The notes below the pieces were generated by a model. That model had not been told where the DNA came from. It worked only from the letters and a program-made list of their open reading frames with translations, and did no database searches. Source: a virus. From it: a stretch of DNA of 64,000 bases. This document shows, piece by piece, positions 1,781-28,275 of the stretch (its first letter is position 1; each line of letters begins with the position of its first letter). The stretch covers positions 3,738 through 67,737 of IMG/VR virus record IMGVR_UViG_3300046812_000216. One strand, given 5' to 3'. The position numbers were made by a program, and so were the translations under genes.

Positions 1781-1835
1781 GCCATGCCAAGCCCCGCCTT
1801 ACCACGCCCAACCAAGCCGTGCCACGCCAAGCCAT
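1781..1835 (-). ncRNA. Solo GGY-NN pentamer unit (candidate guide RNA)
   Basis: 11 perfect RCC-NN pentamers on +: gccAT gccAA gccCC gccTT accAC gccCA accAA gccGT gccAC gccAA gccAT. Intergenic and flanked by hairpins. Confidence 0.7.
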
Positions 1836-14745: not shown

Positions 14746-15159
14746 TCACTCCGCGACGAAGATTGGCTTGGCCGACAGGAGATTGGCGGTGACGAGGGCG
14801 TCGTCGAACAGTCCCTCGACCTCAACCATGCTAAAGCTGGATTTCCTGAAATCTTCTTTGGTGACGAAGCCGGAGCCGTCAGCCTTGTCGATCATGGCGA
14901 GGGCCAGACGGCGGATGCTGTCGTCGCGGTGGGTGCTGACGAATTTCTCGGCCGCGTTCTCGATCTTTTCGAGAGCCTCTTCGAAGGTGGCGGCATATTC
15001 GCACATCACCGACTTGCCGGTGACGCCTTGAGGATAGAGCGAGCAGAGGATCGGATTGTTGTCGGGGCGGCCGGTGGCGAAGCCGTAGCCGACATAGCAC
15101 TTGGGGCCAAACTTGGCGGCGATCTTGTTGATGCGGGTGTTGATCTCTGCGGGCGTCAT
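14746..15159 (-). CDS. Hypothetical protein
   Basis: RBS AAAGGA; upstream TTGACG-N18-TAAGAT promoter-like element. Confidence 0.6.
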   Translation of the reverse strand: MTPAEINTRINKIAAKFGPKCYVGYGFATGRPDNNPILCSLYPQGVTGKSVMCEYAATFEEALEKIENAAEKFVSTHRDDSIRRLALAMIDKADGSGFVTKEDFRKSSFSMVEVEGLFDDALVTANLLSAKPIFVAE

Positions 15160-15846
15160 GTGGTGTTTCCTTTCGTTCATACAGGCGGATCTTACCGTGG
15201 TTTATTTTGCACCGTCAACCGCTTTTTTGACCTCGTCGGCAAAGCGGCTGTTGATTTTCGCCAGTTCGATCATGGCGTGCTTGCGGTCGTAGCAGAAGCA
15301 GTCATTGGCGTGGTGATCGACATCGAGGTCGGCCAGACACATGCAGCGCGGGCTGGAGCAAGCGCCGATCTTCGCCAGAGCCTTCTTCCGCACCTCCAGC
15401 GCATAGATGATCCAGTCGATAGGGTCAGGCGTATTTGATTCGTCCACAGACATCCTCCTCATGGGTGCGCGGGAAAACCGTGCCGAAGGGCGTGGCATAG
15501 AGGCTTGGCGGCCGAATCAAGCAGTCGCCATAGAGCCCCTCGCTATCGACAATCTTGTCGCTGTCCACGATGTCGCGCGCGCCACGGCGCCAGTAAAAGC
15601 AGAATTTGCAGCAGCAATCCGGATCTTCGAAGATCTTCGACATCTACCTCTCCAAAACCTTGATGGCGCGGGTTACCCTCATGACCGGCTGAATTCTCTT
15701 GTCGTTGAGGTGCTCAAGCGCCAGCGCCACGCGCCGCGAGTTTTCGCTCTGGGCGGCCTGCGATTTCACCAGATCGTCCTGAAGCTCGTGGATCTTGTCG
15801 GTGAGGCGCTGGACGATGTCCAAGTGAAGCTTCTCCCTCGGCCCCA

Positions 15847-16113
15847 CTACGGTGTCGCCTTCGGCTGGTCCTTGATCAAATTGCATTTGGCGATGTCCGC
15901 AGTGTTGAGGATGATTTGCTTGTTGAAAACGACGACGGGCGTGACGTGTCCAGACGGGCGCTCATTGTAATATTCGTCCACGACGATGAATTTCGCCCGG
16001 CAAAGAGTGCCGCAGAGACTGTCGAGATCTTCCGCCGGGTGGTGGAAGATGACTGTGTGAACCAGATTGTTGTCTTTGGTCGCCACCTTCAGCGTAGCAA
16101 GAAACATCGCCAT
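15847..16113 (-). CDS. Hypothetical protein
   Basis: 88 aa ORF heading a run of small overlapping ORFs (15202-16113). Confidence 0.55.
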   Translation of the reverse strand: MAMFLATLKVATKDNNLVHTVIFHHPAEDLDSLCGTLCRAKFIVVDEYYNERPSGHVTPVVVFNKQIILNTADIAKCNLIKDQPKATP

Positions 16114-16164
16114 CTTGTGAACCTTCAGAGGAGACGGGGCGAACCCGCCTCCCCGCCTTGTCGA

Positions 16165-16815
16165 TCAGCCGAAATCGTCGGCGTCCGCTGTTTCATGCGT
16201 GACCTTTTTCGCCCCTGTTTCCGGAGGCGTCTTGCCCTGCTGCTGAGTCTGCTGCGGCTCAGGCTTTTTCTCCGGCGCCCAGTTGGAGACAAGATCTTCC
16301 GGCCGGTTGACCCACGCCGTGATCTTGAACTTGGGCCGGTAATTGGTGGACTTCTTCTCGCCGTTGCCGGACGTGACCGGCGTCGTGCTCTCGATGATCA
16401 CCACCGGAACCTTGCCCGGATTTGCCTTGACCTGAGCGTCATAGTCGTCGGTCAGTTCGTCGAACCCGCCAAGAATCGCATTGGAGTTGCCCGCGATTTC
16501 GCGAACAGATCCGCCGTGCTCCTTGTTGAGCTTGATCATGCAGCGCACGCCCTTCTTGAAGGCGGGCGACGGCCGATCCGGGAAAGGCGCAAAGCGCGGA
16601 GCCATGCGGAATTCCGGAGCCGATCCGGCCGAGAAATTGATCCAGCCGACCTCCATGTGGGCGATGTCGAACACCGCCTTGAAGTTGTGGATTTCGACCG
16701 ATTCGCTCACGCCGTCAGCGCGATCCACGCGGAAGATCCGCCCGGCGCGCGCGTCATATTTCACGATGTCGTTAAAGTCGCCGCCTTCGCTGCCATAGTC
16801 AAAACCAAGAGCCAT
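16165..16815 (-). CDS. Putative single-stranded DNA-binding protein
   Basis: Beta-rich core, Pro/Gln linker and acidic-aromatic tail (ADADDFG); next to a nuclease gene. Confidence 0.6.
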   Translation of the reverse strand: MALGFDYGSEGGDFNDIVKYDARAGRIFRVDRADGVSESVEIHNFKAVFDIAHMEVGWINFSAGSAPEFRMAPRFAPFPDRPSPAFKKGVRCMIKLNKEHGGSVREIAGNSNAILGGFDELTDDYDAQVKANPGKVPVVIIESTTPVTSGNGEKKSTNYRPKFKITAWVNRPEDLVSNWAPEKKPEPQQTQQQGKTPPETGAKKVTHETADADDFG

Positions 16816-16882
16816 GACCCTTTTCCTTCTCATGTTCCGGCAGTATGGCCCGCCGGTCGCCTTTTCCCGCTATCGGGAAACC

Positions 16883-17644
16883 TCAGATGCCCCACACCTC
16901 GAACGCCATCTGGCGGGTGACGGGGTCATTAAAATAGAAGCTGTCGATGTCCGGGACAACGAGCCCGGCAAGCTCCATCGGATCTTTCGACAGCGCGACG
17001 AAACGCTGGATGGTCGCCGCGATCTTGTTCAGCGCCAAGATGTGGCCCTTGACGTTCTCTAGCCGGTAGGTGGCGACCTTCTTGGGCGTGACGTAGGTCA
17101 CCCGCCCGTCGATATTGGTGTCGGCCTTGCCGCTCTTGGCGGCGCAATAGAAGGCGATCTGGCGGGCGTGGTTGATCTTGATCTCTGACGGCAGCGCCCA
17201 CGTCGTCTTCAGGTCGATGATCAGGCCGCGCTTTTCCCACTCGAAATCATAATAGCCGATCATCGGCACTGCGATGTCGTCGAACCTGTATTCCAGCAGG
17301 CCTTGCACGCTGCTGGGCGCGCCATAGGGGAGAAGCTCGCCCATGCCCATCATCACCATTTCCGGAACGCCTCCGGCTTCTTTGTCGGCGCGCGGGTCGG
17401 TGGTCATGGCGGTCAGGGTTTTGAATTGATCCATCGCCTTGGACTGGCAGTCGCGCAGCGCGGCCTTGCTGGTCAGACCATGGGCGACGCCGGTTTCTAC
17501 GGACGTGCCGCGATGGGCTGCGGCGCCAACGCTGGTTTTTTTCTTGAGGATTCGCTGAAGCACGAAAAGGGCTGGCGACCCAATAAACTGGGTGCAGGCC
17601 GATGGGGACAGGTGATCGATGTCGTGCGCTTCAAACGGGTTCAT
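16883..17644 (-). CDS. PD-(D/E)XK exonuclease (RecB/Cas4-like recombination nuclease)
   Basis: HLSPS...RGTSVE...IGYYDF...IIDLKTT...RQIAFY. Confidence 0.85.
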   Translation of the reverse strand: MNPFEAHDIDHLSPSACTQFIGSPALFVLQRILKKKTSVGAAAHRGTSVETGVAHGLTSKAALRDCQSKAMDQFKTLTAMTTDPRADKEAGGVPEMVMMGMGELLPYGAPSSVQGLLEYRFDDIAVPMIGYYDFEWEKRGLIIDLKTTWALPSEIKINHARQIAFYCAAKSGKADTNIDGRVTYVTPKKVATYRLENVKGHILALNKIAATIQRFVALSKDPMELAGLVVPDIDSFYFNDPVTRQMAFEVWGI

Positions 17645-17695
17645 GCGATCACTCCAAGAGGAAAACGCCGGGGACCGAAATCCCCGGCGAGTAGA

Positions 17696-18064
17696 TTAGT
17701 GACCGGCAGCGCCGCCGCCGACCGCGATCACGCTGGCTCCGCCCGACGTGGTCGAACCGGCGAGGCCGTTGCCCGAAGACGCGGCAAGCGTGCTGGAGGT
17801 GGACGAAGCCGTTCCGGCGCCGCCGCCGCCCGCGATGGAGCCGCCGAAGAAGCCGCCAGTGGCCGCCCCGCCGCCGCCCGCAACGCCGGTCGCGCTGGCG
17901 GTCGTGCCGCCGATGGCCGCAGCGTGGCCGAGCGAGCCCGTCAGCGTGCTGGAGTGGGTGTTGGTGATGACGACGCCGCCGCCGACGCCGAAGGCGTTGA
18001 CCTGAGCGAAAGCCGGAGCCGCAACCAGAGCCAGCGCGCTGGCGAGAACAAGGATCTTCTTCAT
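17696..18064 (-). CDS. Small secreted Gly/Ser/Ala-rich protein
   Basis: Signal peptide MKKILVLASALALVAAPAFA; the mature part has no Asp, Glu, Lys or Arg. Confidence 0.7.
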   Translation of the reverse strand: MKKILVLASALALVAAPAFAQVNAFGVGGGVVITNTHSSTLTGSLGHAAAIGGTTASATGVAGGGGAATGGFFGGSIAGGGGAGTASSTSSTLAASSGNGLAGSTTSGGASVIAVGGGAAGH

Positions 18065-18357
18065 GCTATTTTCCCTATAGGTTTGCCAAGGAACCGCCTT
18101 GGCGCGGATATCTTGAGCCACCGCCCACGCCCCCGAAACTGCGAAGGTCCAAAGCGTGGGCGGCGTTCAACTTGCTTTCGTGCCGCTCTGTCTGGGAGGC
18201 TTGGCACGCCCCGCTCTCCACGAGGGACGCAAGAACTTAATTCATGGTCGTCAGCAGCCGCCTGAACGGTAAAAGCCGACGACCAGCTTGCTTTCGTGAC
18301 TAGCTGATGAGCGCGTTTTGTCACGCCCGCGCCGTTGAGTTGCGCGGGGACGCAAGG

Positions 18358-19140
18358 TCAGTTGGAGGCCATCTTCACGCAGACGCCCGCATCGGCGGAC
18401 CTCTGCGCGCCCTTCGAACCGCAGGCGGCGACGACGAAGTGACGCCCCTTGCTATCTGAATAGTCGGCGGCCTTCAATTCACGCGATTTTTCGCCGGGAA
18501 TCTTGCCGTGGTACTCGCCCTTGAACACCGGGTGAGAACCATATTCCTCGCGATAGGCGACCGTCTGCACGGCATAGCGGCCGACGCGGCAGCGGATGCC
18601 GCCAGCCGTCATCGAGACGGCCAGTTCATCGTCCATGCAGAGAGTCTGCAATGCGGCGTCGCGCTGCCCAAAGTTCCACAGCGTGCGCGCATTCAACCGC
18701 TTGTTGCAGGGGCCGTCCTGCCACGGAAAACCCAGCGCTCCCCCTCCTCCCACAGCGGCGCCGCCCAGCGAGACAGAGCCGTTGCAGCTTTCGATGCCCG
18801 CAGCCGCCATGCCGGGCGCAAACACCGCCGGAGCCTGCCCGGTGGTCGTGCTGTTGAAGGTGTTGGTGTTGGCCGCGCCGGACTGGTTGGCGTTGACGGA
18901 GCGGACGCCGACCGTCTGCGCGCTGTTGATGCGCGAATTGACGTTCGAGTTGGAGTTGGACCGGGACTGCGAGGCCGAAGCGGCGTTCGCGGTGTTGCGG
19001 TTGTTCTGGACGGGAGCGGCCACGGCGGTCGAGCGCGAGCCCGAAGTGGCGATGCCGGTGCCGACGCCGATGGCGTTCTGTGCGAAGGCGGTGGTGGAAA
19101 GAAGGCCCAAACCAAGGGCGGCGACAATGATCTTCTGCAT
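18358..19140 (-). CDS. Secreted protein with Asn/Ser-rich region and Cys-containing domain
   Basis: Signal peptide MQKIIVAALGLGLLSTTAFA; SCNGSVSLGG...DGPC...AALQTLC. Confidence 0.7.
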   Translation of the reverse strand: MQKIIVAALGLGLLSTTAFAQNAIGVGTGIATSGSRSTAVAAPVQNNRNTANAASASQSRSNSNSNVNSRINSAQTVGVRSVNANQSGAANTNTFNSTTTGQAPAVFAPGMAAAGIESCNGSVSLGGAAVGGGGALGFPWQDGPCNKRLNARTLWNFGQRDAALQTLCMDDELAVSMTAGGIRCRVGRYAVQTVAYREEYGSHPVFKGEYHGKIPGEKSRELKAADYSDSKGRHFVVAACGSKGAQRSADAGVCVKMASN

Positions 19141-19155
19141 GCTACTGTTCTCCAA

Positions 19156-19374
19156 TTACCAGTTTTGCCATTTGACTTTGTTGCCGATGACCCAGCGGCC
19201 CTCGACCATTGCGGCGTCGAAGAAAGCCTTGACGACATCTTTCATGGCGATCTTGACGTGTTCAGGCATGCTTTCCGCAGGATACTGGCAGGCATCGAGC
19301 TTTTTCTTGCTGTAGACGAGCCAGAGTTCCTGATCGCCGTTGGTGCTCAACGGCTTCTGCACCTTGACGATCAT
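19156..19374 (-). CDS. Hypothetical protein
   Basis: 72 aa operon-packed ORF; RBS GGAGG. Confidence 0.6.
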   Translation of the reverse strand: MIVKVQKPLSTNGDQELWLVYSKKKLDACQYPAESMPEHVKIAMKDVVKAFFDAAMVEGRWVIGNKVKWQNW

Positions 19375-19598
19375 GGCGACACCGCCTCCCTGATCGTCTT
19401 TCTGGTCAGGGAGAGGAAGTTTTCCGCCGCCCGCCAGTCCGATGTCGTCTTTCCATAATAGAGCGGAGGCAGGCCGGGAGCCTTGATGCGAATATGCTTG
19501 CCCATGCTCACTTCAGCTTCATATCCGTTCGTTTTGAGAATTTCGATGGATTGTTTGACGGCGAGGGGAAGTCTCATCTTGATCGTCCTTACATTCAT
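19371..19598 (-). CDS. HicA-like small protein
   Basis: LKTNGY...GKHIRI...KTTSDWRAAENF resembles the HicA dsRBD fold with its GxH motif. Confidence 0.5.
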   Translation of the reverse strand: MNVRTIKMRLPLAVKQSIEILKTNGYEAEVSMGKHIRIKAPGLPPLYYGKTTSDWRAAENFLSLTRKTIREAVSP

Positions 19599-20119
19599 TC
19601 GACAGTGACGGTGACGGCCTCCTTGCCTTTCAATTCTGCGATGTGGGGGAAACCCTTGACGGCGGCGTCGTAGACGCTCTTGAGGTGATCGTGGCCGGAC
19701 TCGAACCAATTGACGCGGTCTTCCGGGAACTTGATTTCTCTTTTCTTGAAATCCTCGAAAGCGTCGAGGACGATCTTGTAAGAGTCGGCGGCCAGACCAA
19801 AAATCGCGCCGACATCGGACATCATCGGCAGGGCGCCGTCATGTTCTTCCTTGATGCTTTCCAGCGTCTCGATGTAGGAGTTTTTGGCGGCGATGTTGTC
19901 GAGCACCGCCTTGCCATATTCGACAAAGATCATGAGATCGCCATCGAGCTTGTCGCTGTTCTTGCTTGTGAGGTAAGTCTCGATCTTGACCTCAAGGGCG
20001 GCGATCTTCTCCATGCAGGCGATTTCTTTCTCGCAGCAGGAAATAAGCTCCGAGACACAGAGCCCCAGCAGCAGGCAATCGGAAATCACGTTTTTATGGA
20101 GGGCCATGGTTTTTTGCAT
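19595..20119 (-). CDS. Hypothetical protein
   Basis: 174 aa helical ORF. Confidence 0.6.
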   Translation of the reverse strand: MQKTMALHKNVISDCLLLGLCVSELISCCEKEIACMEKIAALEVKIETYLTSKNSDKLDGDLMIFVEYGKAVLDNIAAKNSYIETLESIKEEHDGALPMMSDVGAIFGLAADSYKIVLDAFEDFKKREIKFPEDRVNWFESGHDHLKSVYDAAVKGFPHIAELKGKEAVTVTVE

Positions 20120-20197
20120 TTCGTTCGTCCGTTCTTGGTGGTGAGGCCCGCATCTTCGGGCTGATTCGGGCCTCGTGTCAACAATGAAAAGCGAAAA

Positions 20198-20704
20198 TTA
20201 TTCGCCTTCCGAGATTTCGCGAATGTTCTGGATGGCGTCGCGAATTTTGGTCATTTTCGCCGTGTTTCTGGTTTTCTCCGATACCGGCGCGATGCGAAGC
20301 AAAAGAGCCACCGAATGCTCCAGATCGGCGATTTTCGAGAAAAACTCGCGAAGCGCAAGGTCAAACTGGTCCGGCTGGCCGATAAGCCTGACGGTGGGCG
20401 TGTAGACCGGATCTGAGGTTTCCGTGCGCGGAACGTGCGTCCACGCCTGAATTTCAACCGGATCTCCCTTGGCGTCATTGCAGACGACCGTGACCTGTCT
20501 GATCAGGCTCCGCGCCTGATGGACGCGGTGGGCCTCGCCCGCGACCGCATCGTCCCACTCGAAAGCCGGGTGGAGGACGGCGCCTTCCGGCCGGGATTCA
20601 TTCACGACATCTTTTGCGTGAAGGCCGCCTTTCTCTTCGTCGATGCGCTCAAGCTCCGTCTGGATCTTTTCGACCTCGACGCCTGCGATTGTCCGTTTAG
20701 TCAT
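20198..20704 (-). CDS. Conserved phage protein immediately downstream of the GGY-NN array (candidate accessory/effector)
   Basis: RBS GGAGA between the array end and the start codon; motif GLHAKDVVNESR...LHPAFEWDDAVAGEAHRVHQARSLIR. Confidence 0.75.
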   Translation of the reverse strand: MTKRTIAGVEVEKIQTELERIDEEKGGLHAKDVVNESRPEGAVLHPAFEWDDAVAGEAHRVHQARSLIRQVTVVCNDAKGDPVEIQAWTHVPRTETSDPVYTPTVRLIGQPDQFDLALREFFSKIADLEHSVALLLRIAPVSEKTRNTAKMTKIRDAIQNIREISEGE

Positions 20705-20724
20705 TTACTTTCTCCATGTTAATT

Positions 20725-22015
20725 GCCTGCCTTGCCAGACCGGGCGGAACCCCGCCTAGCCTTGCCGCGCCTTGCCTGCCGCGCCTTACCCCACCGCGCC
20801 TTGCCCCTCCAAACACTGCCGCGCCCTGCCTGCCTCGCCGAGCCCCGCCGCACCTGACCGGGCCTCGCCTGCCTTGCCCGGCCGAGCCGCGCGGCGCCGC
20901 GCCACGTATCGCCATGCCTGCCTTGCCTTGCCGCACCCAACCGTGCGCCGCCAAGCCTAGCGCTGCCTGCCTTGCCTATCCGCGCCAAGCCTTGCCTTGC
21001 CCGACCCAGCCTTGCCGAGCCTCGCCTGCCTGCCTTGCCGGGCCGTGCCATTCCTAGCCGGACCCCGCCTTGCCTGCCGCGCCCGGCCTGACCATGCCTT
21101 GCCATGCCGGGCCACACCACGCCTGCCGCGCCCCGCCTAGCCCCGCCTTGCCTAGACGTGCCTTGCCTCGCCGTGCCTGCCTTGCCTTGCCTTGCCGGGC
21201 CAGTCCTCGCCCCGCCTCGCCTTGCCACGCCTGCCTCGCCCCGCCAGACCGAGCCGCGCCCAGATCTGCCGCGCCGCGCCTGCCACGCCATGCCTAACCG
21301 TGCCGCGCCGAAACAAGCCATGCCATGCCTGCCGCGCCTCTCCATGCCAAGCCGCTCCCGGCCCGACCTTGCCTCGCCTGCCTCGCCGCGCCTCGCCACG
21401 CCTTGCCTCGCCACGCCTTGCCTGCCTTGCCTCGCCAGACCCCGCCCAGCCCTGCGTCGCCGCGCCAGCCGTTGCCTCGCCCCGCCTGCCTCGCCGAGCC
21501 GATCCGAGCCGAGCCCTGCCTTGCCAGACCGAGCCTGCCGAGCCAAGCCTGACCCTGCCCAGCCGTGCCTAGTCATGCCTGCCGTGCCGCGCCCCGCCTC
21601 GCCTCGCCGCTCCTTGCCTGCGTTGCCTGACCATACCCGGCCTTGCCACGCCGTGCCGTGCCTGCCGAGCCTTGCCGTGCCGCGCCGTACCCCGCCGCGC
21701 CAGTCCAGACCGGGACGGACCCAGCCTTGCCTTGCCTTGCCGCGCCTGCCGTGCCTGACCGTGACCAGCCTTGCCTTGCCTCGCCGCGCCTGCCGTGCCG
21801 TGCTATGCCGGGCCTCGCCATACCGAGCCGAGCCGCGCCACGCGCTGCCTGCCTTGCCCTGCCTGACCTGACCTAGCCACGCCTGACCGGACCAAGCCTT
21901 GCCCCGCCTGCCCTGCCCTGCCCCGCCGCGCCTTGCCTAGCCTAGCCGTGCCGGGCCTTGCCTGCCGTGCCACACCTTGCCGAGTCGCGCCGAGCCCAGC
22001 GTTGCCACGCCTGCG
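20725..22015 (-). ncRNA. Array of 25 GGY-NN pentamer units separated by GGCAGGC (candidate guide-RNA array, not a CRISPR)
   Basis: GCCTGC(C/G) separators on + start at 20725, 20774, 20828, 20867, 20916, 20965, 21024/21028, 21072, 21121, 21175, 21229, 21278, 21327, 21376, 21420, 21484, 21533, 21577, 21616, 21660, 21744, 21788, 21847, 21906, 21960, 22009. All unit lengths are 39/44/49/54/59/64/84, i.e. 5n+4. Confidence 0.85.
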
Positions 22016-22020
22016 GCGTT

Positions 22021-22048
22021 ATTGGCGCAGAGAGAACCCTACGCCAAT
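22021..22048 (-). promoter_or_regulatory. Leader hairpin between the RAMP-like gene and the array
   Basis: Minus-strand RNA AUUGGCGUAGGG-UUCU-CUCUGCGCCAAU forms a 12 bp stem; its two G-U pairs form only on the minus strand. Confidence 0.65.
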
Positions 22049-22056
22049 CTCTTGAT

Positions 22057-22686
22057 TTAGTTGACGATTTCGAAGGTTCCCCAGCCAAGACCGGCTGATT
22101 CTCGGCTGTCAGGACGACCTTCGCCAACGCCAACCTGTAACCCTGCTCTCAACAACAGATTGGTCACATCTGTCGCTGAAAACTGATCTGCATCAAACTT
22201 GACCTTGAGCGTCAGTCCCCACTCGCGCCACATCGGCCGGACGCGAACATCGGTCACGCCGGAGCTATTGCGGGCGTGCATTTTCAGCATTTCAGGCGCG
22301 CCGACATTGAGGCGCACCAGCGGAATTCCATCAACCCGATCCAGCCCATCGGCCAGAACAAAAACAGACATTTTTGCGACAGTCATCCGGAACCCAACCA
22401 GACGGCAGGCGCTGATCATCGCATTTCTAAATGCTGCGCAAGGAATTCCGATCCAGCCTTCGGTGCTGTAGTGGATGGCGCCGTCCATATCGGCGCTGAA
22501 GTTTCGCGGCTCGCGGATCTTCTTGGAGCGGGCGGTGGTGCCTTCCAGCATTTTGCCTTCCATCGCCTGCCGGGCCTTTTCGCTGAAGCGGGCCTGAACC
22601 AGAGGAGCAGTGCCGGAGAGCAGGAATTCGAGCGTCTGCACATTCGGCGCGGTGATGGCGACAACGGTCTTGATAGGAGCTTTCAT
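22057..22686 (-). CDS. Stand-alone Cas7/RAMP-like RNA-binding protein
   Basis: N-terminal strand LEFLLSGTAPLV; GIPCAAFRNAMISA (cf. the RAMP IPGSSLKGA helix); C-terminal Gly-rich loop AGLQVGVGEGRP...GLGWGTFEI. No other cas genes nearby. Confidence 0.75.
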   Translation of the reverse strand: MKAPIKTVVAITAPNVQTLEFLLSGTAPLVQARFSEKARQAMEGKMLEGTTARSKKIREPRNFSADMDGAIHYSTEGWIGIPCAAFRNAMISACRLVGFRMTVAKMSVFVLADGLDRVDGIPLVRLNVGAPEMLKMHARNSSGVTDVRVRPMWREWGLTLKVKFDADQFSATDVTNLLLRAGLQVGVGEGRPDSRESAGLGWGTFEIVN

Positions 22687-22739
22687 TTCGTTCGTTCTTT
22701 CTTTCGTTTGCGGGGGACGTTTTCCCCTCGACAATTTGC

Positions 22740-22767
22740 ACCATATCGTGTTTGATGGGTTCGTCAA
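22740..22767 (-). promoter_or_regulatory. Candidate promoter for the RAMP-array operon
   Basis: TTGACG-N16-TATGGT on the minus strand in a divergent intergenic gap. Confidence 0.4.
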
Positions 22768-22782
22768 GCACTAAAGGAGTTG

Positions 22783-22962
22783 ATGATGGCTAAAAATAAA
22801 TCCCCAAAGACTGAAGTGGTGAAGATGATCGCTTTTTCCATCCGGCTGCGGCCGGAGGTCGCCGTCAGGCTGCATCGACTGGCGGATAATGAAGAGCGAT
22901 CTGTCGCGTATATGGTCGGCAAGGCGGTCGATATGCTGCTGGCGGAGCGCGCCCGTGGATAA
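22783..22962 (+). CDS. Ribbon-helix-helix (Arc/CopG-like) regulator
   Basis: AFSIRLRPEVAVRLHRLADNEERSVAYMVGKAV; RBS AAGGAG; divergent from the RAMP-like gene. Confidence 0.75.
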   Translation: MMAKNKSPKTEVVKMIAFSIRLRPEVAVRLHRLADNEERSVAYMVGKAVDMLLAERARG

Positions 22963-23548
22963 GGCCAGCAAGAAGGAAAGGCGCGCCCAGCGAGAGGTCG
23001 AGCTTTCGGGCAAGATCCTCGCCCTGCCCGACAAACGCTATGGCGTGATCTATGCCGATCCTCCATGGCGGTTCGAGACATGGTCGGAAAACGGCATGGA
23101 TCGGTCGGCCGAGAACCATTATCCATGCATGAGCCTCGACGCCATCGCCAATATGCCGGTGCCGAAGATCATGGCTAGGGACTGCGCCCTGTTCATGTGG
23201 GCGACTGTCCCGATGCTGGTGAGCGCGCTCAACGTCATGCATTTATGGGGATTCACCTATAAGAGCCATGCGATCTGGGTGAAGCCAAACGCCATCACCG
23301 GCTATTGGTTCAGGAATCGGCACGAATTGCTGCTGGTCGGCACGCGCGGCCAGATCCCGGCGCCAGCGCTGGGGACGCAATTCGAATCGGTGTTTCTGGC
23401 GCCGACCAGCGTCCACAGCGCCAAGCCGGAAAAGGCGGCGCAGATGATCGAGCATTATTATCCCAACATTCCAAAAGTTGAATTGTTTTGCCGTGGTGCG
23501 CCGCGTCCCGGCTGGTCTGGCTGGGGTCAGGAGTGCGAAGGTGAATAA
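22955..23548 (+). CDS. MT-A70 family N6-adenine methyltransferase
   Basis: YGVIYADPPW, HYPCM, LFMWAT, GYWFRNRHELLLVGTRG, HSAKP, VELFCRG. Confidence 0.92.
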   Translation: MDKASKKERRAQREVELSGKILALPDKRYGVIYADPPWRFETWSENGMDRSAENHYPCMSLDAIANMPVPKIMARDCALFMWATVPMLVSALNVMHLWGFTYKSHAIWVKPNAITGYWFRNRHELLLVGTRGQIPAPALGTQFESVFLAPTSVHSAKPEKAAQMIEHYYPNIPKVELFCRGAPRPGWSGWGQECEGE

Positions 23549-23551
23549 TAA

Positions 23552-23612
23552 GGCAGGCTTGGCAAGGCGTGGCACGGTGTAGCAAGGCCCGGCAGGGTTT
23601 GGCATGGCAGGC
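23552..23612 (+). ncRNA. Solo complete GGY-NN unit flanked by GGCAGGC at both ends (candidate guide RNA)
   Basis: ggca ggcTT ggcAA ggcGT ggcAC ggtGT agcAA ggcCC ggcAG ggtTT ggcAT ggcaggc. Separator spacing is 54 = 5x10+4, the same grammar as the main array. Confidence 0.8.
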
Positions 23613-23646
23613 ATGGAAGGGAATCAAGATGGATAGGAGATTTGAA

Positions 23647-23856
23647 ATGCCGGGCGACGACGAAGAAGACCTCAAAATGATGCCGATCAGTGTAAATTTT
23701 GTGCTGCCGGTCGGCATGATTCGCGCCATCGAGGGCGCGGCGCGCGCCGAAAACCTCGCCCCTGCCGACTGGATCGTTCAGGTCATGTCGGAGAAACTCG
23801 GCTTCACAGTATTTTTCAACCCGCCGGAAGCGCCACCCCGCAACGAGCTTAACTGA
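23647..23856 (+). CDS. Small RHH-like protein
   Basis: RBS AGGAGA; beta-alpha-alpha pattern ISVNFVLPVGMIRAIEGAARAENLAPADWIVQVMSEKL. Confidence 0.55.
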   Translation: MPGDDEEDLKMMPISVNFVLPVGMIRAIEGAARAENLAPADWIVQVMSEKLGFTVFFNPPEAPPRNELN

Positions 23857-23868
23857 AGGAACGCACGC

Positions 23869-24384
23869 ATGGCTTATTACATCGGCATCGATCCCGGCAT
23901 CCACGGGGCCATCGCCATCCTCGATTCGCAGGGCAGGCTCATGCACGTCGAGGACATCCCCATCCTGTCGGACGGCGCCAAGAGCCGCTCGACCATCAAC
24001 GCGCCGCTGCTGGTCGATCTGATTCGCAAGACATACGCCGTCGAGGCTTACGTCGAACTGGTGGGCGTCCGGCCGGGCGAGGGCGCAGTCGGCGCTTTCG
24101 CCTTCGGCCGGTGCCGGGGCGTGATCGAGGGCGCGCTGGCGGGCTGCGGCATCCCGATGACGCTGATCGCGCCGCCGACGTGGAAAAAGATCTGCGGCAT
24201 CCCGGCGGGCAAGCTTGGCGCGAAGGATGCGGCGCGCAGCAAGGCCATCGGCCGCTGGCCGGACAAGGCGCCGGACTTCAAGCGGGTCAAAGACGCCGAC
24301 CGGGCCGAAGCGGCGCTGATCGCCTACGCCGGTCTGGTGCGCTTCGGCAAGCTGGAGAAGGTGAGCGCCGACGACGACTTCTGA
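23869..24384 (+). CDS. RuvC-like Holliday junction resolvase
   Basis: YIGIDPGIHGAIA, AYVE, AFAFG, PPTWKK, DRAEAALIA. Confidence 0.88.
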   Translation: MAYYIGIDPGIHGAIAILDSQGRLMHVEDIPILSDGAKSRSTINAPLLVDLIRKTYAVEAYVELVGVRPGEGAVGAFAFGRCRGVIEGALAGCGIPMTLIAPPTWKKICGIPAGKLGAKDAARSKAIGRWPDKAPDFKRVKDADRAEAALIAYAGLVRFGKLEKVSADDDF

Positions 24385-24448
24385 GTCTTAAAAAGTCGAT
24401 TGAGTTTTTTAGACTCAATTAAAATCAAGTAAGAACGGACGAACGGAC

Positions 24449-25012
24449 ATGACGATGGCGCTCAATATCGAAAAAGTGAAAAAAATCCTCCGCCTGCTGG
24501 AAAGCCAGCATGACGGCGAGCGCGCCAACGCCGCCGCCATGCTCCACCGCATCGCGGAGGCCGAGCGGATGAACCTCGATGAGTTGATGAGGATCGTCTA
24601 CAGCGGCGGCCCGCAGGCGAAAGAGGCTCCCAAGCCTAAGTCCAGCGGGTTCTGGGGCGGAGATCCGCCGCCGTGGGAGCGCGACGCGCGCGAAGAAACC
24701 CATCGCCGCAGGCAAAGAGAGCAGGAAAGGGAAGAGCGCGAGCGCCGCGAGCGCGAGGCCCAGCCAATGTGGCAAGACGCCAAAACCAAGTCGGGGATCG
24801 CCTTCGCCGCGATGGGCGACGACGAGCTTCTGAAGACGATGAAGCGCTTTCATGAAGAGATTGGCGAGTCGATGCTGACGCCGTGGGAGCGCGAATTCAC
24901 CACCGACATCACCAACCGGAAATTCGCTTTCCTTAACCTGAGCGACAAGCAGCGCGCGGTGATTTTGCGCATCCTCAAAAAGTATGAGGCTTACGGAAAC
25001 GCGACGTTCTGA
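24449..25012 (+). CDS. Hypothetical protein
   Basis: N-terminal KILRLLESQHDGERANAA; C-terminal LTPWEREF...LSDKQRAVILRI. Confidence 0.65.
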   Translation: MTMALNIEKVKKILRLLESQHDGERANAAAMLHRIAEAERMNLDELMRIVYSGGPQAKEAPKPKSSGFWGGDPPPWERDAREETHRRRQREQEREERERREREAQPMWQDAKTKSGIAFAAMGDDELLKTMKRFHEEIGESMLTPWEREFTTDITNRKFAFLNLSDKQRAVILRILKKYEAYGNATF

Positions 25013-25047
25013 GATTCGCTTTGGGGGTCGGTTTGGGATTATGCTGC

Positions 25048-25078
25048 AAAAAAGAAGGGGCGCCCGAAAGCGCCCCCT
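25048..25078 (-). terminator. Hairpin with A-tract (intrinsic terminator-like)
   Basis: A-run then GGGGCGC-CCGAAA-GCGCCCC. Confidence 0.4.
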
Positions 25079-25320
25079 CGATCCACCCCCGGTAACCAGC
25101 CGGAGATGTGTCACCACCACCCAAGACCAAAAGGCTAGAAAGGAGAACCTGTTCAATCCACCACAGATCGTTTGGCTCTATCCCATCAGGCGTTTGGCTG
25201 TTCCAGATATAGCGGTTTCCTCTCCTGTCCGCAATGTCTGCCTAGCCTGCGCCTCGCAAAATTGAGGCATGATATGTCGAATGTAGGAACAATTTTCCCT
25301 TTCCAGAAAGCGATTCGGCC

Positions 25321-27576
25321 ATGAGCTATCCCTTCGGGAAGGTCGATCTGGAATTCGCAGCCGTGTCCAATTACGCGGCCTATTACAAAGAGAAGGGGCT
25401 GGCCCCGATCCCGTCCTTCACCCCGGACGAAGTGGGGTGGATCAAGAACATCGCCGGTCACTGGCAAGCTCCGCCCAACCCGACAAAAACCCAGCTTTCA
25501 TGGAAGCGTCCGGTGCCGAAGTGGCGCGATCTGCCGCCGGTCCTGACGGAAGAAATTTTCCACAAGTGGTTTGGCAAGGGCGGGCTCTATGTCTCGCGCA
25601 AGCACCAGCTTGGACATCTGACATTTCGTTCCGCCGACCGCGTTTTCGTGATCGACCTCGACACCCACAAGACGCCGGAGGCGGCGATCTGGTGGCAGTT
25701 GATGGAGGAGATGCAGCAGAAGGGCGGTGAGCTTGAGGCGCCGGAAATCATTACCGGCGGCGGCGGGCGCCAGCTTCTGTTTCGCGCTCCGCCCGGCTGG
25801 ACGCCGCCGACCAACAAGACGAACTACGGCGTCGATATCAGGGGTAAGGGCGGGTTTGCCGTCCTGCCGCCATCCGTCCACGAATCCGGCCGCCTGTACG
25901 AATGGAAAGACGGACTGGCCCTCGATGACTTCAAGGTCATCCCGGAGGCTCCGGCTTGGCTCTGCGAGCAGATCGACCAGCTTGTCGCCGAATCCGGCGG
26001 AGGTCCGGCGCCGCGCGATCATGTCCACACGGCTACGCCGCACGACGGCGCGGAAAACATCTTCGGCCGCAAGATCGACGGGCGCGAGTGGGAGGCGACC
26101 AAGATCGCCTTCCGCACCGTGGTCAACGCCTATCGCGAATGCCCGATCAGCCCGTCGTTGTCCGAGATCGAGAAGATGGTCAATTCCGGCTTCACGGTCT
26201 ACCTCGACCGCTGCAAGAGCCGCCTGCCGATAGGCGATCCGGGCTCCAACGCCGAGAGGCTGGAGCGCGAGGGTCGCGGCTACACCATGTTCCAGCGCAA
26301 GATCCTCGACCTGATGCCGCGATGGGCCACATTCGTCGCGACAGAGGCCGCGAAGCCCAACCCTTTCGAAGAGGCCTCCCCGAATAAAGATCCGTTCGAG
26401 GAGGCGCGCAAGGAGCAGCAGCAAGAGCAGGAGCCGCCCCAGCAGGCCGCTGGAGGCGATTCGTCGCCACCGCCGCCCCCACCCCCGCCGCCACCGGACG
26501 AGGAGGCGGAATTCTCCGGCGCAGCCCAGCCGAAGCAGGAGGCCAAGAGCAAGATCATGCTCTACGACCTCGACCAGATCGAGGCCATGCGCGACCCGGT
26601 CTATCTGGTCGATGGCGTGATCGCGGAGGACGCCCTTGGATTTGTCTTTGGCGCGCCGGGCTGCGGAAAATCCTTCCTAGCGTTAAGCCTCGCGCTCGCC
26701 ATCGCCTTTGGCATGAAAGAGTGGTTTGGCAAGGGAATCGCCAAGAACGGGCCGGTGGTCTACATTTCGTCAGAAGGCCAGTCCGACATGAAAAACCGCA
26801 TTCGGGCGTGGAAGAAAAAGTTCAAGTTCGACCACAACGACGCCCCCTTCCGCCTCATCATCGCCCCGCTCAATTTCATGCAGCCGGAAGACGTGATCGC
26901 CCTCCAGAAGGCGGTGTCGGCCGCCGTGGCGGGCATGGGCGGCAAGCCGGTGATGTTCGTGGTCGATACCGTGTCGCGCGTCCTGCCGGGCGCCGACGAG
27001 AACCTCCAGAAAGACATGACGCTGTTCGTCCGGGCCTGCGACTTCCTGCGCACCAGCTTCGGCGCGGCGGTGATGGGCGTCCACCACACCTCGCGCAATG
27101 GCAACATGCGCGGCTCCAGCGTGTTCGACGGCGCGGCCGACTTCATGCTCCAGATCGAGCGCGAGAAGCAGGCGCAGATCGGCCTGATGACTGCCGCCAA
27201 GATCAAGACGGCGATGGACGGCTGGGAGCTTGAGTTCGAGCTTGAGCAGATCGAGGTCCGGCCATTGACCGGCGCCACCTCGCTCGTCGCCATCCCGGTC
27301 AGCAAAGATGCGCCTAAAAAGCTGACGCCGGATCTGGCGCGAAAAATCCGGCAGGCGATCCATGACGCATGGCAGATGAAGAACCCGTGGTCGAGCGCGA
27401 TCCAGACCCGCGCCACCGGCCGCTATGCCATCGACCACATGGTCCGCGACTTTGGCCTGCCGGTGGTCGAGGCGGAACAGTTGCTCAAGGACTGGCTCTT
27501 CAACGGCGTTCTCAAGGTCGAAATGGTCAGCATCGACACCAAGCAAAAGGGGCTCAAGGTCATGCTTTGGGACTGA
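25321..27576 (+). CDS. Bifunctional primase-polymerase fused to RecA-like (AAA_25) helicase
   Basis: VFVIDLDTH, TGGGGRQLLFR, VDIRGKGGFAVLPPSVH (Prim-Pol); GAPGCGKS Walker A, FVVDT Walker B, VHHTSR..MRGSS. Confidence 0.92.
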   Translation: MSYPFGKVDLEFAAVSNYAAYYKEKGLAPIPSFTPDEVGWIKNIAGHWQAPPNPTKTQLSWKRPVPKWRDLPPVLTEEIFHKWFGKGGLYVSRKHQLGHLTFRSADRVFVIDLDTHKTPEAAIWWQLMEEMQQKGGELEAPEIITGGGGRQLLFRAPPGWTPPTNKTNYGVDIRGKGGFAVLPPSVHESGRLYEWKDGLALDDFKVIPEAPAWLCEQIDQLVAESGGGPAPRDHVHTATPHDGAENIFGRKIDGREWEATKIAFRTVVNAYRECPISPSLSEIEKMVNSGFTVYLDRCKSRLPIGDPGSNAERLEREGRGYTMFQRKILDLMPRWATFVATEAAKPNPFEEASPNKDPFEEARKEQQQEQEPPQQAAGGDSSPPPPPPPPPPDEEAEFSGAAQPKQEAKSKIMLYDLDQIEAMRDPVYLVDGVIAEDALGFVFGAPGCGKSFLALSLALAIAFGMKEWFGKGIAKNGPVVYISSEGQSDMKNRIRAWKKKFKFDHNDAPFRLIIAPLNFMQPEDVIALQKAVSAAVAGMGGKPVMFVVDTVSRVLPGADENLQKDMTLFVRACDFLRTSFGAAVMGVHHTSRNGNMRGSSVFDGAADFMLQIEREKQAQIGLMTAAKIKTAMDGWELEFELEQIEVRPLTGATSLVAIPVSKDAPKKLTPDLARKIRQAIHDAWQMKNPWSSAIQTRATGRYAIDHMVRDFGLPVVEAEQLLKDWLFNGVLKVEMVSIDTKQKGLKVMLWD

Positions 27577-27582
27577 GCAATT

Positions 27583-27895
27583 CCCGGAAGTCGATTTTGG
27601 AGACTTCCGGTCAATGAAATCAACAGGTTACGGGCTAAAAACCCGGATTTTCCGGAAGTCTCCGGAAGTCCAGCCCTCAGACCTCCGGAGACTTCCGGAG
27701 AACAGTAAACCCAGCAAAAACAAGGAGTTAACATGAAAGCACGGAAGTTTCACGGAAGTCGGCCGGAAGTCGCACGGAAGTCCCACAAAAAACCCAATGA
27801 AATCAACGGTTTAGACTTCCGGCGGACTTCCGTCGCGCGTACATACACGCGAGCGCGCGCGTGCGCCCCCCTTCGGGGGGAGGGGGACTTCCGTA
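27583..27895. repeat. Iteron-like repeat cluster (putative replication origin)
   Basis: About 12 copies of CGGAAGT/ACTTCCG in both orientations plus 2 x CAATGAAATCAAC, directly after the primase-helicase. Confidence 0.65.
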
Positions 27896-27999
27896 CCCCC
27901 ATCCAACCATCCCCCTTGGACGCGGAGGCTCGCTCCTATGGTCGCGACCTCCGCTGAAGAGGATGGGACGATGAAACGGCAGAACGAAAGGATGAAACA

Positions 28000-28275
28000 G
28001 TGAGGTTCAAGGTTGGTGGAGATATTGTCGAGGCGACGGTGATCGCGGAGGAGGGCGGCAAGATCCTGATCGAGCTTCCCATCGACAAGGCGGTGCGACG
28101 CTTCAGGGTCAGGCGCGGGGCAGGCAAGTGGCGTCCGCTGTCGATCAACAAGGCTGGCGCGATCTACGAGACGAAAAGCGCCAAGGCGCTGCTCGATGAA
28201 GACAGGCCGCTGTTCGACTGGGCGCAGGGCCGGATATGGATGAACGAAGGGAAGGTTGAAAATGGCAAGGGTTAA
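28000..28275 (+). CDS. Hypothetical protein
   Basis: 91 aa operon-packed ORF with GTG start. Confidence 0.55.
   Translation: MRFKVGGDIVEATVIAEEGGKILIELPIDKAVRRFRVRRGAGKWRPLSINKAGAIYETKSAKALLDEDRPLFDWAQGRIWMNEGKVENGKG

What the first reader, a model, noticed from the sequence alone, without database searches (positions are those of the whole stretch)
20725..21960. Decoded target strings of the remaining 24 units: a possible record of competitors
Plus-strand NN strings (predicted target strand, one skipped base between pairs), left to right: TT AG GG GA CC TA TT GC TT; GC TT CC GC TT CC AA CT GC CT; TC GA CC GC TG GG TC; TT CG GA GC GC GC AC TC AT; TT TT GC CA GT CC AA TA CT; TT TA GC AA TT TT CG CA TT GA TC; TT GG GT AT TA GG CC TT; GC CG TG AT TT AT GG AC AC; GC CC TA CC TT TA GT TT TC GT; TT TT TT GG AG TC CC TC TT AC; TC CC AG GA GC CA CT GC GC; AC AT TA GT GC GA AA AT AT; GC TC AT AA GC CG CG TT TC; TC GC TC AC TT TC AC TT; TT TC AG CC CA CT TC GC AG TT TC CC; TC GA GA GA GA CT TT AG GA; GA AA TG CT CA GT TA AT; GT GC CC TC TC GC TT; TT TG AT CG TT AC GT GT; GA TT GT GC GT CC GC AG AG GG GG CA TT TT TT GC; GT TG GT CA TT TT TC GC; GT GT AT GG TC AT GA GA GC AC CT; TT CT TG TG TA AC TG GG AA TT CC; CT CT CC GC TT TA TA GT GG TT. 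No two are the same. I found no convincing in-window target for these by eye, though that scan was not exhaustive. No integrase or reverse transcriptase that could write new units is visible, so how units diversify is open.
Basis: partly seen in the sequence, partly recalled or inferred. Interest (0 to 1): 0.75.

Follow-up and report, generated by a model that had tools for sequence, protein, structure and literature searches.

The report
Phage VIPR guide-RNA array, partly decoded
This stretch is a very long array of guide RNAs of the recently described phage VIPR system, and at least one of its 24 units exactly matches an essential gene of related soil phages, so it does appear to list rivals.

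Summary
Window 20725-22013 holds 25 tandem units of 7-16 pentamers (GCC+NN on +, NN+GGC on the transcribed minus strand), separated by a 4-nt GCCT.

The locus is a VIPR system as described in 2026 preprints. It has a Cas7-like Vipr gene (22686..22060), the array, and a conserved accessory gene (20704..20201). The array fits the 'staggered' type.

No unit has a target in the phage's own genome. In about 4.4 Mb of related viral DNA, matches exceed shuffled controls only in the 1-nt-skip register.
- Unit 10 matches 20/20, in codon register, an Enc34/Gp2.5-type ssDNA-binding gene. The match occurs in three IMG/VR records of related, vipr-less phages. Expected by chance: 5.5e-7.
- Units 9 and 19 match conserved large-terminase (TerL, 17/20) and portal (14/16) motifs of the same relatives better than the phage's own alleles (10/20, 12/16).
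- Unit 25, outside the finding, resembles vipr genes.
- The other 21 units have no target.

Metagenome contigs show unit-scale indels and pentamer slippage.

Verdict: a new, unusually large member of a known kind. The 'record of competitors' reading is partly supported.

The parts
22060..22686 (-). vipr gene: 209-aa small RAMP (Cas7-like) protein that would coat the repeat RNA
   Evidence: phrog_4652 at 8.3e-16, no Pfam family. AF2 model pLDDT 81.2. 19 Foldseek PDB matches at E<=1e-3; the listed ones are Csm3 (type III-A), Cmr (III-B), type VII Cas7 and Cas7-11 chains. The family profile hits PDB 36pp_D 'SUSP1 Vipr protein' at E 3e-4, with thumb Arg and G-loop Arg aligned.
22740..22767 (-). 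weak sigma-70-like promoter match upstream of vipr
   Evidence: 9 of 12 consensus positions. 1 site found against 0.8 expected in shuffles, so this is not evidence by itself.
20725..22013 (-). vrRNA array: 25 units of (NN-GGY)n, joined by a 4-nt AGGC (GGCAGGC junctions), between vipr and vap
   Evidence: Arrays of the same kind lie on the vipr strand in 78 of 101 relatives' loci and on the other strand in 3.
21179..21228 (-). unit 10 (10 NN): guide with an exact natural target
   Evidence: 20/20 at skip 1, in codon register, in an Enc34/Gp2.5-like ssDNA-binding gene at G407:6677 (L355), G409:32347 and L388:10253. 18/20 at five further places. Expected by composition 5.5e-7. The gene was not found in the phage's own genome with this query.
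21125..21174 (-). unit 9 (10 NN): candidate guide against the large terminase gene of relatives
   Evidence: 17/20 in register at the TerL nuclease-motif region in G403, G404 and L337-339. 0 of 100 shuffles reach this. Own TerL allele scores 10/20.
21620..21659 (-). unit 19 (8 NN): candidate guide against the portal gene of relatives
   Evidence: 14/16 in register at a conserved portal motif, in 12 loci of the 3.0 Mb set (0 of 60 and 1 of 200 shuffles reach 12 loci) and in 16 further loci. Own portal allele scores 12/16. The best score alone is not significant (P 0.49).
21964..22013 (-). unit 25 (10 NN, outside the finding): resembles the DADQF-motif region of vipr genes
   Evidence: 16/20 to own vipr at 22175-22203, in register (1 of 200 shuffles). 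17-18/20 in 11 other vipr loci (0 of 200 shuffles reach that many loci).
20201..20704 (-). vap-like accessory gene (168 aa)
   Evidence: phrog_15946 at 2.6e-16. A homologue lies within 2.5 kb downstream on the same strand in 82 of 103 vipr loci with enough sequence. AF2 pLDDT 73.5; only weak fold matches to winged-helix-type regulators (best E 0.1).
23559..23608 (+). solo vrRNA-like unit (10 pentamers, flanked by AGGC) after the MT-A70 methylase gene
   Evidence: scaffold 8 of 10 GGC/GGT. No target found (best 0.80, P 0.31).
1781..1835 (-). solo vrRNA-like unit (11 pentamers), followed in the RNA by a hairpin at about 1750-1775
   Evidence: 19/22 in register in a 1118-1543-aa open frame of six related records (0 of 100 shuffles).

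Best explanation
The stretch is the guide-RNA (vrRNA) array of a phage-borne VIPR system.

How it would work. The minus strand is transcribed with vipr and vap. The transcript is a chain of NN-GGY pentamers. The 4-nt AGGC junctions mark unit boundaries, in the way the preprint describes for 'staggered' arrays whose neighbouring vrRNAs overlap by one base. Vipr protomers, one per pentamer, would hold each GGY and present the NN pairs. The NN pairs then base-pair with double-stranded DNA while skipping every third base, so they read codon positions 1 and 2 and ignore the wobble base. Binding silences the target gene.

What the units aim at. Each unit is a separate guide. At least unit 10 is aimed at an essential replication gene, an ssDNA-binding protein, of related vipr-less phages from the same kind of samples. 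Units 9 and 19 probably aim at the terminase and portal genes of the same phages. Unit 25 resembles vipr genes of other VIPR phages. The phage's own alleles score lower or are absent, which would spare self.

Shown here: the anatomy, the protein fold and its homology to a solved Vipr, the gene-array linkage across relatives, and the skip-1 in-register matches.

Inferred from the literature and not tested here: transcription, processing at the junctions, RNP assembly, and silencing.
For: - Protein. The fold is Cas7-like. The family profile matches the solved SUSP1 Vipr at E 3e-4, with R138, D177 and R179 aligned to the family-invariant R150, E189 and R191. Residue roles are from 10.64898/2026.04.26.720927, section 5 read.
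- Repeat. 209 of 237 pentamers are GGY, with about 1.9 bits of entropy at each N. Unit sizes are 7-16, against the published 9-16.
- Linkage. Arrays lie on the vipr strand in 78 of 101 loci, totalling 11,376 nt against 82 nt on the other strand. vap lies downstream in 82 of 103 loci. Cyanophage Cy-LDV1 has the same order.
- Composition. NN composition fits codon positions 1-2 (log-likelihood -645) better than positions 2-3 (-679), positions 3-1 (-722) or a uniform model (-657). NN GC content is 0.48, against 0.55, 0.61 and 0.69 for the three codon phases of the phage's own genes. The strand that this model predicts agrees with the actual hit for units 9, 10, 19 and 25.
- Targets. Unit 10 matches 20/20 in three records; 5.5e-7 is expected.
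- Register specificity. At skip 1 the multi-locus test gives units 25, 19 and 13 a shuffle P of 0.017 or less. At skips 0, 2 and 3 no unit falls below 0.025. In the relatives' genomes mean best identity is 0.807 against 0.786 +/- 0.006 (0 of 100 shuffles).
- Codon phase. The hits of units 9, 10, 19 and 27 all lie in wobble-phased open frames of 250-1543 aa.
- Co-occurrence. The contig names of a window-identical fragment (L299) and of a targeted relative (L337) share one IMG/VR sample prefix.
Against: - 21 of the 24 units have no candidate target in about 4.4 Mb scanned.
- At the literature's 0.8 threshold the array is not above shuffles (10 of 24 against 8.75, P 0.29).
- Unit 19's best score alone is ordinary (P 0.49; P 0.2).
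- Unit 9's three mismatches fall on conserved TerL residues, so no terminase is likely to match it perfectly.
- 130 guides parsed from relatives' arrays showed no clear enrichment in 1.3 Mb.
- No conserved 3' tail or pseudoknot separates the units, unlike the characterised type II vrRNAs.
- By the preprint's own text, staggered arrays were not among the architectures confirmed by sRNA-seq.
- Units 3 and 18 have only 7 pentamers, below the published range.
Confidence: 0.85

Rival explanations
1. It is a VIPR array, but most of the unmapped units aim at something other than competing phages. Candidates are the host chromosome (regulation or decoy sites), satellites or plasmids.
For: 21 of 24 units have no hit in viral DNA related by Vipr, TerL, portal or tail fibre. 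Lopez et al. (10.64898/2026.10.15.759431; abstract and sections 8 and 17 read) report vrRNAs aimed at host repeat elements and at satellites. The host of this phage is unknown: the best TerL identity among 401 alphaproteobacterial genomes sampled was 56%.
Against: The four units with candidates all hit phage genes. No host genome could be scanned, so there is no positive evidence for host targets.
Confidence: 0.25
2. Most units are relics. A few are kept by selection, and the rest drift or are by-products of pentamer slippage and recombination, so the array is not a faithful record.
For: Natural variants lose or gain two units or one (88-nt and 54-nt skips) and gain two pentamers by slippage. 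There is an empty unit (doubled GCCT at 21024-21031). 28 of 237 pentamers are degenerate.
Against: In one strain pair the array carries 1 difference in 703 nt, against 10 in the 1225 nt to its left (X13 contig), which points to constraint. NN composition is codon-like. Units are not derived from each other.
Confidence: 0.15
3. It is not a guide array at all. Instead it is a G-rich transcript or DNA element acting through structure (R-loop, two-tetrad G-quadruplexes, a Rho-resistant spacer) or as a lattice for a TRAP-like RNA-binding ring.
For: There is strong strand asymmetry: GC skew is -0.30 on the plus strand over 21001-22000. GG runs recur every 5 nt. This was my reading before the literature search.
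Against: A structural role does not explain hypervariable NN beside invariant GGY, the linkage to a Cas7-like protein homologous to a solved Vipr, or a 20/20 skip-1 in-frame match.
Confidence: 0.02

Closest known systems
VIPR systems (Vipr + vrRNA), bioRxiv 10.64898/2026.04.26.720920. Structures in 10.64898/2026.04.26.720927; biology in 10.64898/2026.10.15.759431.
   Same: A small RAMP protein; GGY/NN pentamer RNA; a two-gene vipr-vap operon in a phage; the 1-nt-skip code aligned to codon wobble; targets in rival phages, including vipr genes; no self-target.
   Different: 25 units in one tandem array of about 1.29 kb, where the characterised SUSP1 locus has 1+3 vrRNAs of about 100 nt. There is no conserved 3' tail or pseudoknot between units, only a 4-nt junction. 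The Vipr is only remotely similar in sequence to SUSP1 Vipr (E 3e-4 by profile). Which of the seven types this is cannot be told here, because the figures and data files are not held.
'Staggered vrRNA arrays' (legend of fig. S18 in the same preprint; legend read, figure not held)
   Same: Neighbouring units share one base. GGC-AG overlapping GGC-NN gives the GGCAGGC junction seen 26 times here.
   Different: That this is the same architecture is my inference from the legend. By the text, staggered arrays were not among the architectures confirmed by sRNA-seq.
CRISPR arrays with Class 1 (Cas7) effectors
   Same: A tandem array of distinct guides next to a Cas7-fold protein; guides match rival mobile elements; arrays vary by loss or gain of whole units.
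   Different: There are no 20-40-nt repeats or contiguous spacers. No cas1 or cas2 (or other cas) annotation was seen among the 78 window ORFs scanned. The guide information is interleaved in 2-nt pieces and so cannot be a copied protospacer. The carrier is a phage.

Membership tests
VIPR system | Vipr protein: small RAMP with RRM core, thumb and glycine-rich loop | tested here: met
   AF2 pLDDT 81.2. 19 Foldseek PDB matches at E<=1e-3; the listed ones are Csm3, Cmr, type VII Cas7 and Cas7-11 chains. The family profile hits the solved SUSP1 Vipr (36pp_D) at E 3e-4 over the thumb-to-G-loop region.
VIPR system | vrRNA of tandem GGY/NN pentamers, with conserved GGY and hypervariable NN, about 9-16 repeats | tested here: met
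   209 of 237 pentamers are GGY. NN entropy is 1.91 and 1.92 bits. Unit sizes are 7-16, with 23 of 25 units at 8 or more.
VIPR system | Array in the intergenic DNA flanking vipr, with a vap accessory gene | tested here: met
   Arrays lie on the vipr strand in 78 of 101 loci. A vap homologue lies downstream in 82 of 103 loci.
VIPR system | Natural targets obey the 1-nt skip rule, aligned to codon wobble, in competing mobile elements, with no self-target | tested here: met
   Unit 10 matches 20/20 in register in a rival phage's ssDNA-binding gene. The excess over shuffles is specific to skip 1. No self-target for units 1-24. Met for 1 unit firmly and 3 more tentatively, out of 27.
VIPR system | vrRNAs are expressed, processed and bound by Vipr; the complex silences DNA targets | not testable with these tools
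   No RNA run holds the stretch; all 24 runs are DNA contigs.
VIPR type II (SUSP1-like) architecture | Each vrRNA ends in a conserved, structured 3' tail of about 40 nt (pseudoknot) | tested here: not met
   Units are separated by only 4 nt. This locus is therefore not filed as type II. One solo unit (1781-1835) is followed by a hairpin.
CRISPR-Cas | Repeat-spacer array with contiguous spacers, plus adaptation genes (cas1/cas2) | tested here: not met
   The period is 5 nt, not 60-79 nt. No cas annotation among 78 ORFs. No CRISPR family in the Rfam scan of 15000-28000.

The most novel reading that the evidence does not exclude
The 25-unit array is a heritable memory that can be updated one unit at a time, and new units are written by a dedicated mechanism that is still unknown. 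That mechanism would turn a rival's coding sequence into pentamer-interleaved guides, a functional analogue of CRISPR adaptation without Cas1.

Three points leave this open. A guide whose information sits in 2-nt pieces between GGY cannot be copied directly from a target. The units are unrelated to each other. The arrays of near-identical strains differ by whole units, with breakpoints at or near the junctions.
Probability: 0.07. Interest if true: 0.9.

Novelty: new member of a known kind. Interest (0 to 1): 0.5.

Why it matters
VIPR was described only in 2026, and its natural targets have been mapped mainly for Enterobacteria and Pseudomonas phages.

This locus is a complete 67.7-kb soil/rhizosphere phage carrying 25 tandem guides plus 2 solo guides. 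That is the longest array among the 149 related loci fetched with the Vipr protein here; the next longest run seen among the 101 scanned for array length is 781 nt. The array is of the 'staggered' kind, which has not been confirmed experimentally.

It now has a concrete, testable guide-target pair: unit 10 against an Enc34-type ssDNA-binding gene of co-occurring vipr-less relatives. It also shows a pattern of guides that match rivals' alleles of terminase, portal and vipr better than the phage's own.

That makes it a good system for three questions: how staggered arrays are processed, how much mismatch VIPR tolerates, and how guide repertoires turn over in nature.

Tried and rejected
**Readings considered and dropped**
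- Before the literature search I considered a TRAP-like RNA lattice, R-loop or G4 DNA, a Rho-insulating spacer, and a pentapeptide-repeat ORF. ORFs across the array are artefacts, because only TAG can arise in this repeat. All were dropped.
- Rfam: nothing in the array.

**Target searches with no result**
- Self-targets: none for units 1-24.
- Family-level test: 130 guides from relatives' arrays against 1.3 Mb gave no clear excess.
- Test restricted to vipr genes (197 guides, 75 kb): only unit 25 reaches 0.9; 3 or fewer of 30 shuffles do so.
- Window units are not shared with 230 guides from other loci.
- Unit 13's 4-locus hit is one lineage, and the site lies in an uncertain frame, so I treat it as chance.
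- Hits of units 14 and 17 lie in short frames, so I treat them as chance.
- Three units converge on locus L046 (0 of 40 shuffles). I keep this only as a lead, because that record has GC 0.50 and one of its three hits is out of any gene.
- Solo vrRNAs in 17 related records, which might counter-target this phage: none of 7 or more pentamers parsed.

**Relatives and host**
- Close relatives of the array for unit-by-unit alignment could not be obtained. The best Vipr identity was 68% in IMG/VR and 70% in metagenome contigs.
- Host search: TerL in 401 alphaproteobacterial genomes gave a best identity of 56%.
- megablast of 24 kb against phage records: no match.

**Other negatives**
- No RNA holder is listed among the 24 runs.
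- vap fold: no PDB match at E<=1e-3.

**Not done**
- A collection-wide gapped-pattern scan of units 1-24 was not done.

Full report
**1. What is in the sequence**

Between two minus-strand genes lies a run of about 1.29 kb with a strict 5-nt period.
- GCC occurs 207 times in 20701-22040. The spacing is 5 nt 135 times, 10 nt 32 times and 4 nt 26 times.
- A dynamic-programming tiling gives 25 units of 7-16 pentamers (mean 9.5) from 20729 to 22013. Each pair of units is separated by the 4-mer GCCT, which is doubled once at 21024-21031.
- On the minus strand, which is the sense strand of the flanking genes, the repeat reads NN-GGY. 209 of 237 pentamers are GGC or GGT. Entropy is 1.91 and 1.92 bits at the N positions and 0.37, 0.25 and 0.83 at the scaffold positions.
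- All 25 units differ, and they are not more alike than shuffled arrays.
- Long ORFs across the array are artefacts of a repeat in which only TAG can arise as a stop.

**2. What it is**

*The upstream gene.* The gene at 22686..22060 encodes 209 aa. It has no Pfam family but matches phrog_4652, and it belongs to a family of more than 5,000 proteins. Its AF2 model (pLDDT 81.2) matches Cas7-family chains: Csm3, Cmr, type VII Cas7 and Cas7-11 (19 matches at E<=1e-3). A profile of the family hits the solved 'SUSP1 Vipr protein' (PDB 36pp_D) at E 3e-4 over the thumb-to-G-loop region.

*The literature.* A literature search led to the preprint that defines VIPR systems. They consist of a small RAMP (Vipr), RNAs of 9-16 GGY/NN pentamers (vrRNAs), and a 1-nt-skip code for double-stranded DNA. 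Their targets lie in competing phages and satellites, and there are seven types. The described array forms include 'staggered arrays' whose vrRNAs overlap by one base (Results, Discussion, Methods and legends read; figures and data files not held). Companion preprints give:
- the filament and triplex structures, with the residues that hold GGY;
- the satellite conflict, vipr-targeting vrRNAs, and self-match scores lower than non-self scores;
- a language-model survey that recovered 99 VIPR-like clusters.

*Linkage across relatives.* The link between gene and array is general.
- In 101 loci fetched with the Vipr protein, runs of four or more GGC-phased pentamers lie on the vipr strand in 78 and on the other strand in 3. 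The totals are 11,376 nt against 82 nt.
- A homologue of the 168-aa downstream gene (phrog_15946) follows vipr on the same strand in 82 of 103 loci. The gap ranges from 2 to about 2,000 nt.
- Cyanophage Cy-LDV1 shows vipr, array, vap and a second array in that order.

*Features particular to this array.*
- The longest such run among those 101 loci is 781 nt; the window's array is about 1,290 nt.
- The junction GGCAGGC is what a GGC-AG repeat overlapping the next GGC-NN by one base would give. I therefore read this as the staggered architecture. That is an inference from a figure legend.
- There is no conserved tail between units, so it is not the characterised type II layout.

*The phage.* The window is most of a complete 67,737-bp phage record with terminal repeats. 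It encodes terminase, portal, head, tail-fibre, primase-helicase, an MT-A70 methylase and a RuvC-like resolvase. Twenty-four soil or rhizosphere metagenome runs from 24 studies hold the stretch, 4 of them possible sources.

**3. Do the strings point at anything?**

*Own genome.* No. Mean best identity is 0.747 against 0.738 +/- 0.007 for shuffles. In codon register only unit 25, which is outside the finding, stands out. It scores 16/20 on the phage's own vipr at 22175-22203 (1 of 200 shuffles).

*NN composition.* It fits codon positions 1-2 of the phage's genes (log-likelihood -645) better than positions 2-3 (-679), positions 3-1 (-722) or a uniform model (-657).

*Related DNA, first rounds.* I fetched DNA with Vipr, TerL and tail-fibre baits, about 3.0 Mb in 289 loci.
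- There were no perfect hits.
- With a fixed 85% threshold and the number of loci hit as the statistic, three units beat their shuffles at skip 1. Unit 25 hit 11 loci (0 of 60 shuffles). Unit 19 hit 12 loci (0 of 60). Unit 13 hit 4 loci, which are one lineage (1 of 60). At skips 0, 2 and 3 no unit fell below P 0.025.
- Unit 19 reads a conserved portal motif in register at 14/16. The phage's own portal differs in one codon and scores 12/16.
- Unit 19's best score alone is ordinary (P 0.49).

*Closer relatives.* A portal bait then brought closer relatives: portal 68-76% identical, GC 0.61, 72-74% nucleotide identity over 9-22 kb of the window. I laid 18 of their records, 0.85 Mb in all. The five searched for vipr lack it with this query.

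| Unit | Target gene in relatives | Best match | Where | Own allele | Shuffle control |
|---|---|---|---|---|---|
| 10 (21179-21228) | Enc34/Gp2.5-type ssDNA-binding protein, 248 aa | 20/20, in codon register; 18/20 at five further places | G407:6677, G409:32347, L388:10253 | gene not found with this query | 5.5e-7 expected by composition |
| 9 | TerL nuclease-motif region | 17/20 | two lineages | 10/20 | 0 of 100 shuffles |
| Solo unit 1781-1835 | large open frame (1118-1543 aa) | 19/22 | six records | not determined | 0 of 100 shuffles |

The target of unit 10 is assigned as follows: PF10991 at 28.5 bits against a cut-off of 26, and phrog_112 at 6e-4.

*Overall in this set.* Mean best identity is 0.807 against 0.786 +/- 0.006 (0 of 100 shuffles). 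8 of 27 units reach 0.85 or more at skip 1, against 3 each at skips 0, 2 and 3. For units 1-24 in wobble phase, 6 of 24 reach 0.85 or more, against 3.2 (maximum 5) in shuffles. At 0.80 the count is 10 against 8.75 (P 0.29). The published 0.8 cut-off therefore does not discriminate in a set of this size and GC content.

*Summary of targets.* One of the 24 units has a certain target. Two have plausible ones in the same rival phages, with the phage's own alleles scoring lower. Twenty-one have none in what I could scan. A window-identical fragment (L299) and a targeted relative (L337) carry the same IMG/VR sample prefix.

**4. How units change**

Logan contigs of four runs were laid on 19500-23500.
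- A 1,360-nt contig has only 4 other letters but skips 21029-21116. That is 88 nt, or units 7 and 8 less one pentamer.
- A 10-nt insertion adds two TT pentamers in unit 20.
- A short divergent contig skips 54 nt around unit 21.
- Many contigs leave the window's sequence at or near junctions (20920, 21280, 21377/81, 21745, 21962) and run on into different GCC-phased sequence.
- A 2,367-nt contig carries 10 differences in the 1,225 nt left of the array but 1 in the first 703 nt of the array, and that one is an NN base of unit 4.

These are contigs, not reads, so rare variants and exact breakpoints are uncertain. They fit turnover by recombination or slippage on the repeated scaffold, with constraint on the NN content. 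They do not show how a new guide is first made.

**5. What remains open**

- Transcription, processing and silencing were not testable; no RNA run is listed.
- The VIPR type could not be assigned.
- The vap fold is uncertain (pLDDT 73.5; best PDB match E 0.1 to a transcriptional regulator).
- The host is unknown.
- A collection-wide gapped scan, which is the decisive computation, could not be run here.

Noticed in passing
window 1781-1835 (minus-sense) with hairpin at about 1750-1775: A solo vrRNA-like unit of 11 pentamers lies far from vipr and antisense to its neighbouring genes. In the RNA it is followed by a GC-rich hairpin. It matches 19/22, in codon register, a large open frame (1118-1543 aa) in six related phage records (0 of 100 shuffles).
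   Followed up: partly
window 23559-23608 (+): A second solo unit (10 pentamers, flanked by AGGC) sits on the opposite strand to vipr, between the MT-A70 methylase gene and the next ORF. No target was found.
   Followed up: partly
window 21964-22013 and 22175-22203: The unit nearest vipr (unit 25) matches the phage's own vipr at 16/20 and other phages' vipr at 17-18/20, at the conserved DADQF motif near the 3' part of the gene. This echoes the published vipr-targeting vrRNAs whose self-match is lower than their non-self match.
   Followed up: yes
window 21024-21031: A doubled junction (GCCT GCCT), in effect an empty unit, lies exactly where a natural variant contig (run X8) deletes the next 88 nt. 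It may be a scar of unit loss.
   Followed up: partly
G407 (IMG/VR record of 138,254 nt; L355-L361): The record holds two related phage genomes in tandem. It has two portal copies, and ssDNA-binding-gene alleles 100% and 86% identical to the query. Unit 10 matches one allele 20/20 and the other 18/20. The record may be a chimeric assembly.
   Followed up: no
L337-L339, TerL site (e.g. L338 7144): All three mismatches between unit 9 and this terminase allele would be G.T or U.G wobble pairs between the RNA and the template strand. Whether VIPR tolerates such pairs is not addressed in the passages I read.
   Followed up: no
window 22780-22962 (+): A ribbon-helix-helix gene (Antitox_RHH, 2.8e-6) lies head-to-head with vipr. 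It is a possible regulator of the divergent promoters.
   Followed up: no
X13 contig of 8,106 nt: An abundant contig (depth 36) shares only 21930-21962 (part of unit 24) with the window and then leaves the array. A related phage may carry a different array that lacks unit 25.
   Followed up: no
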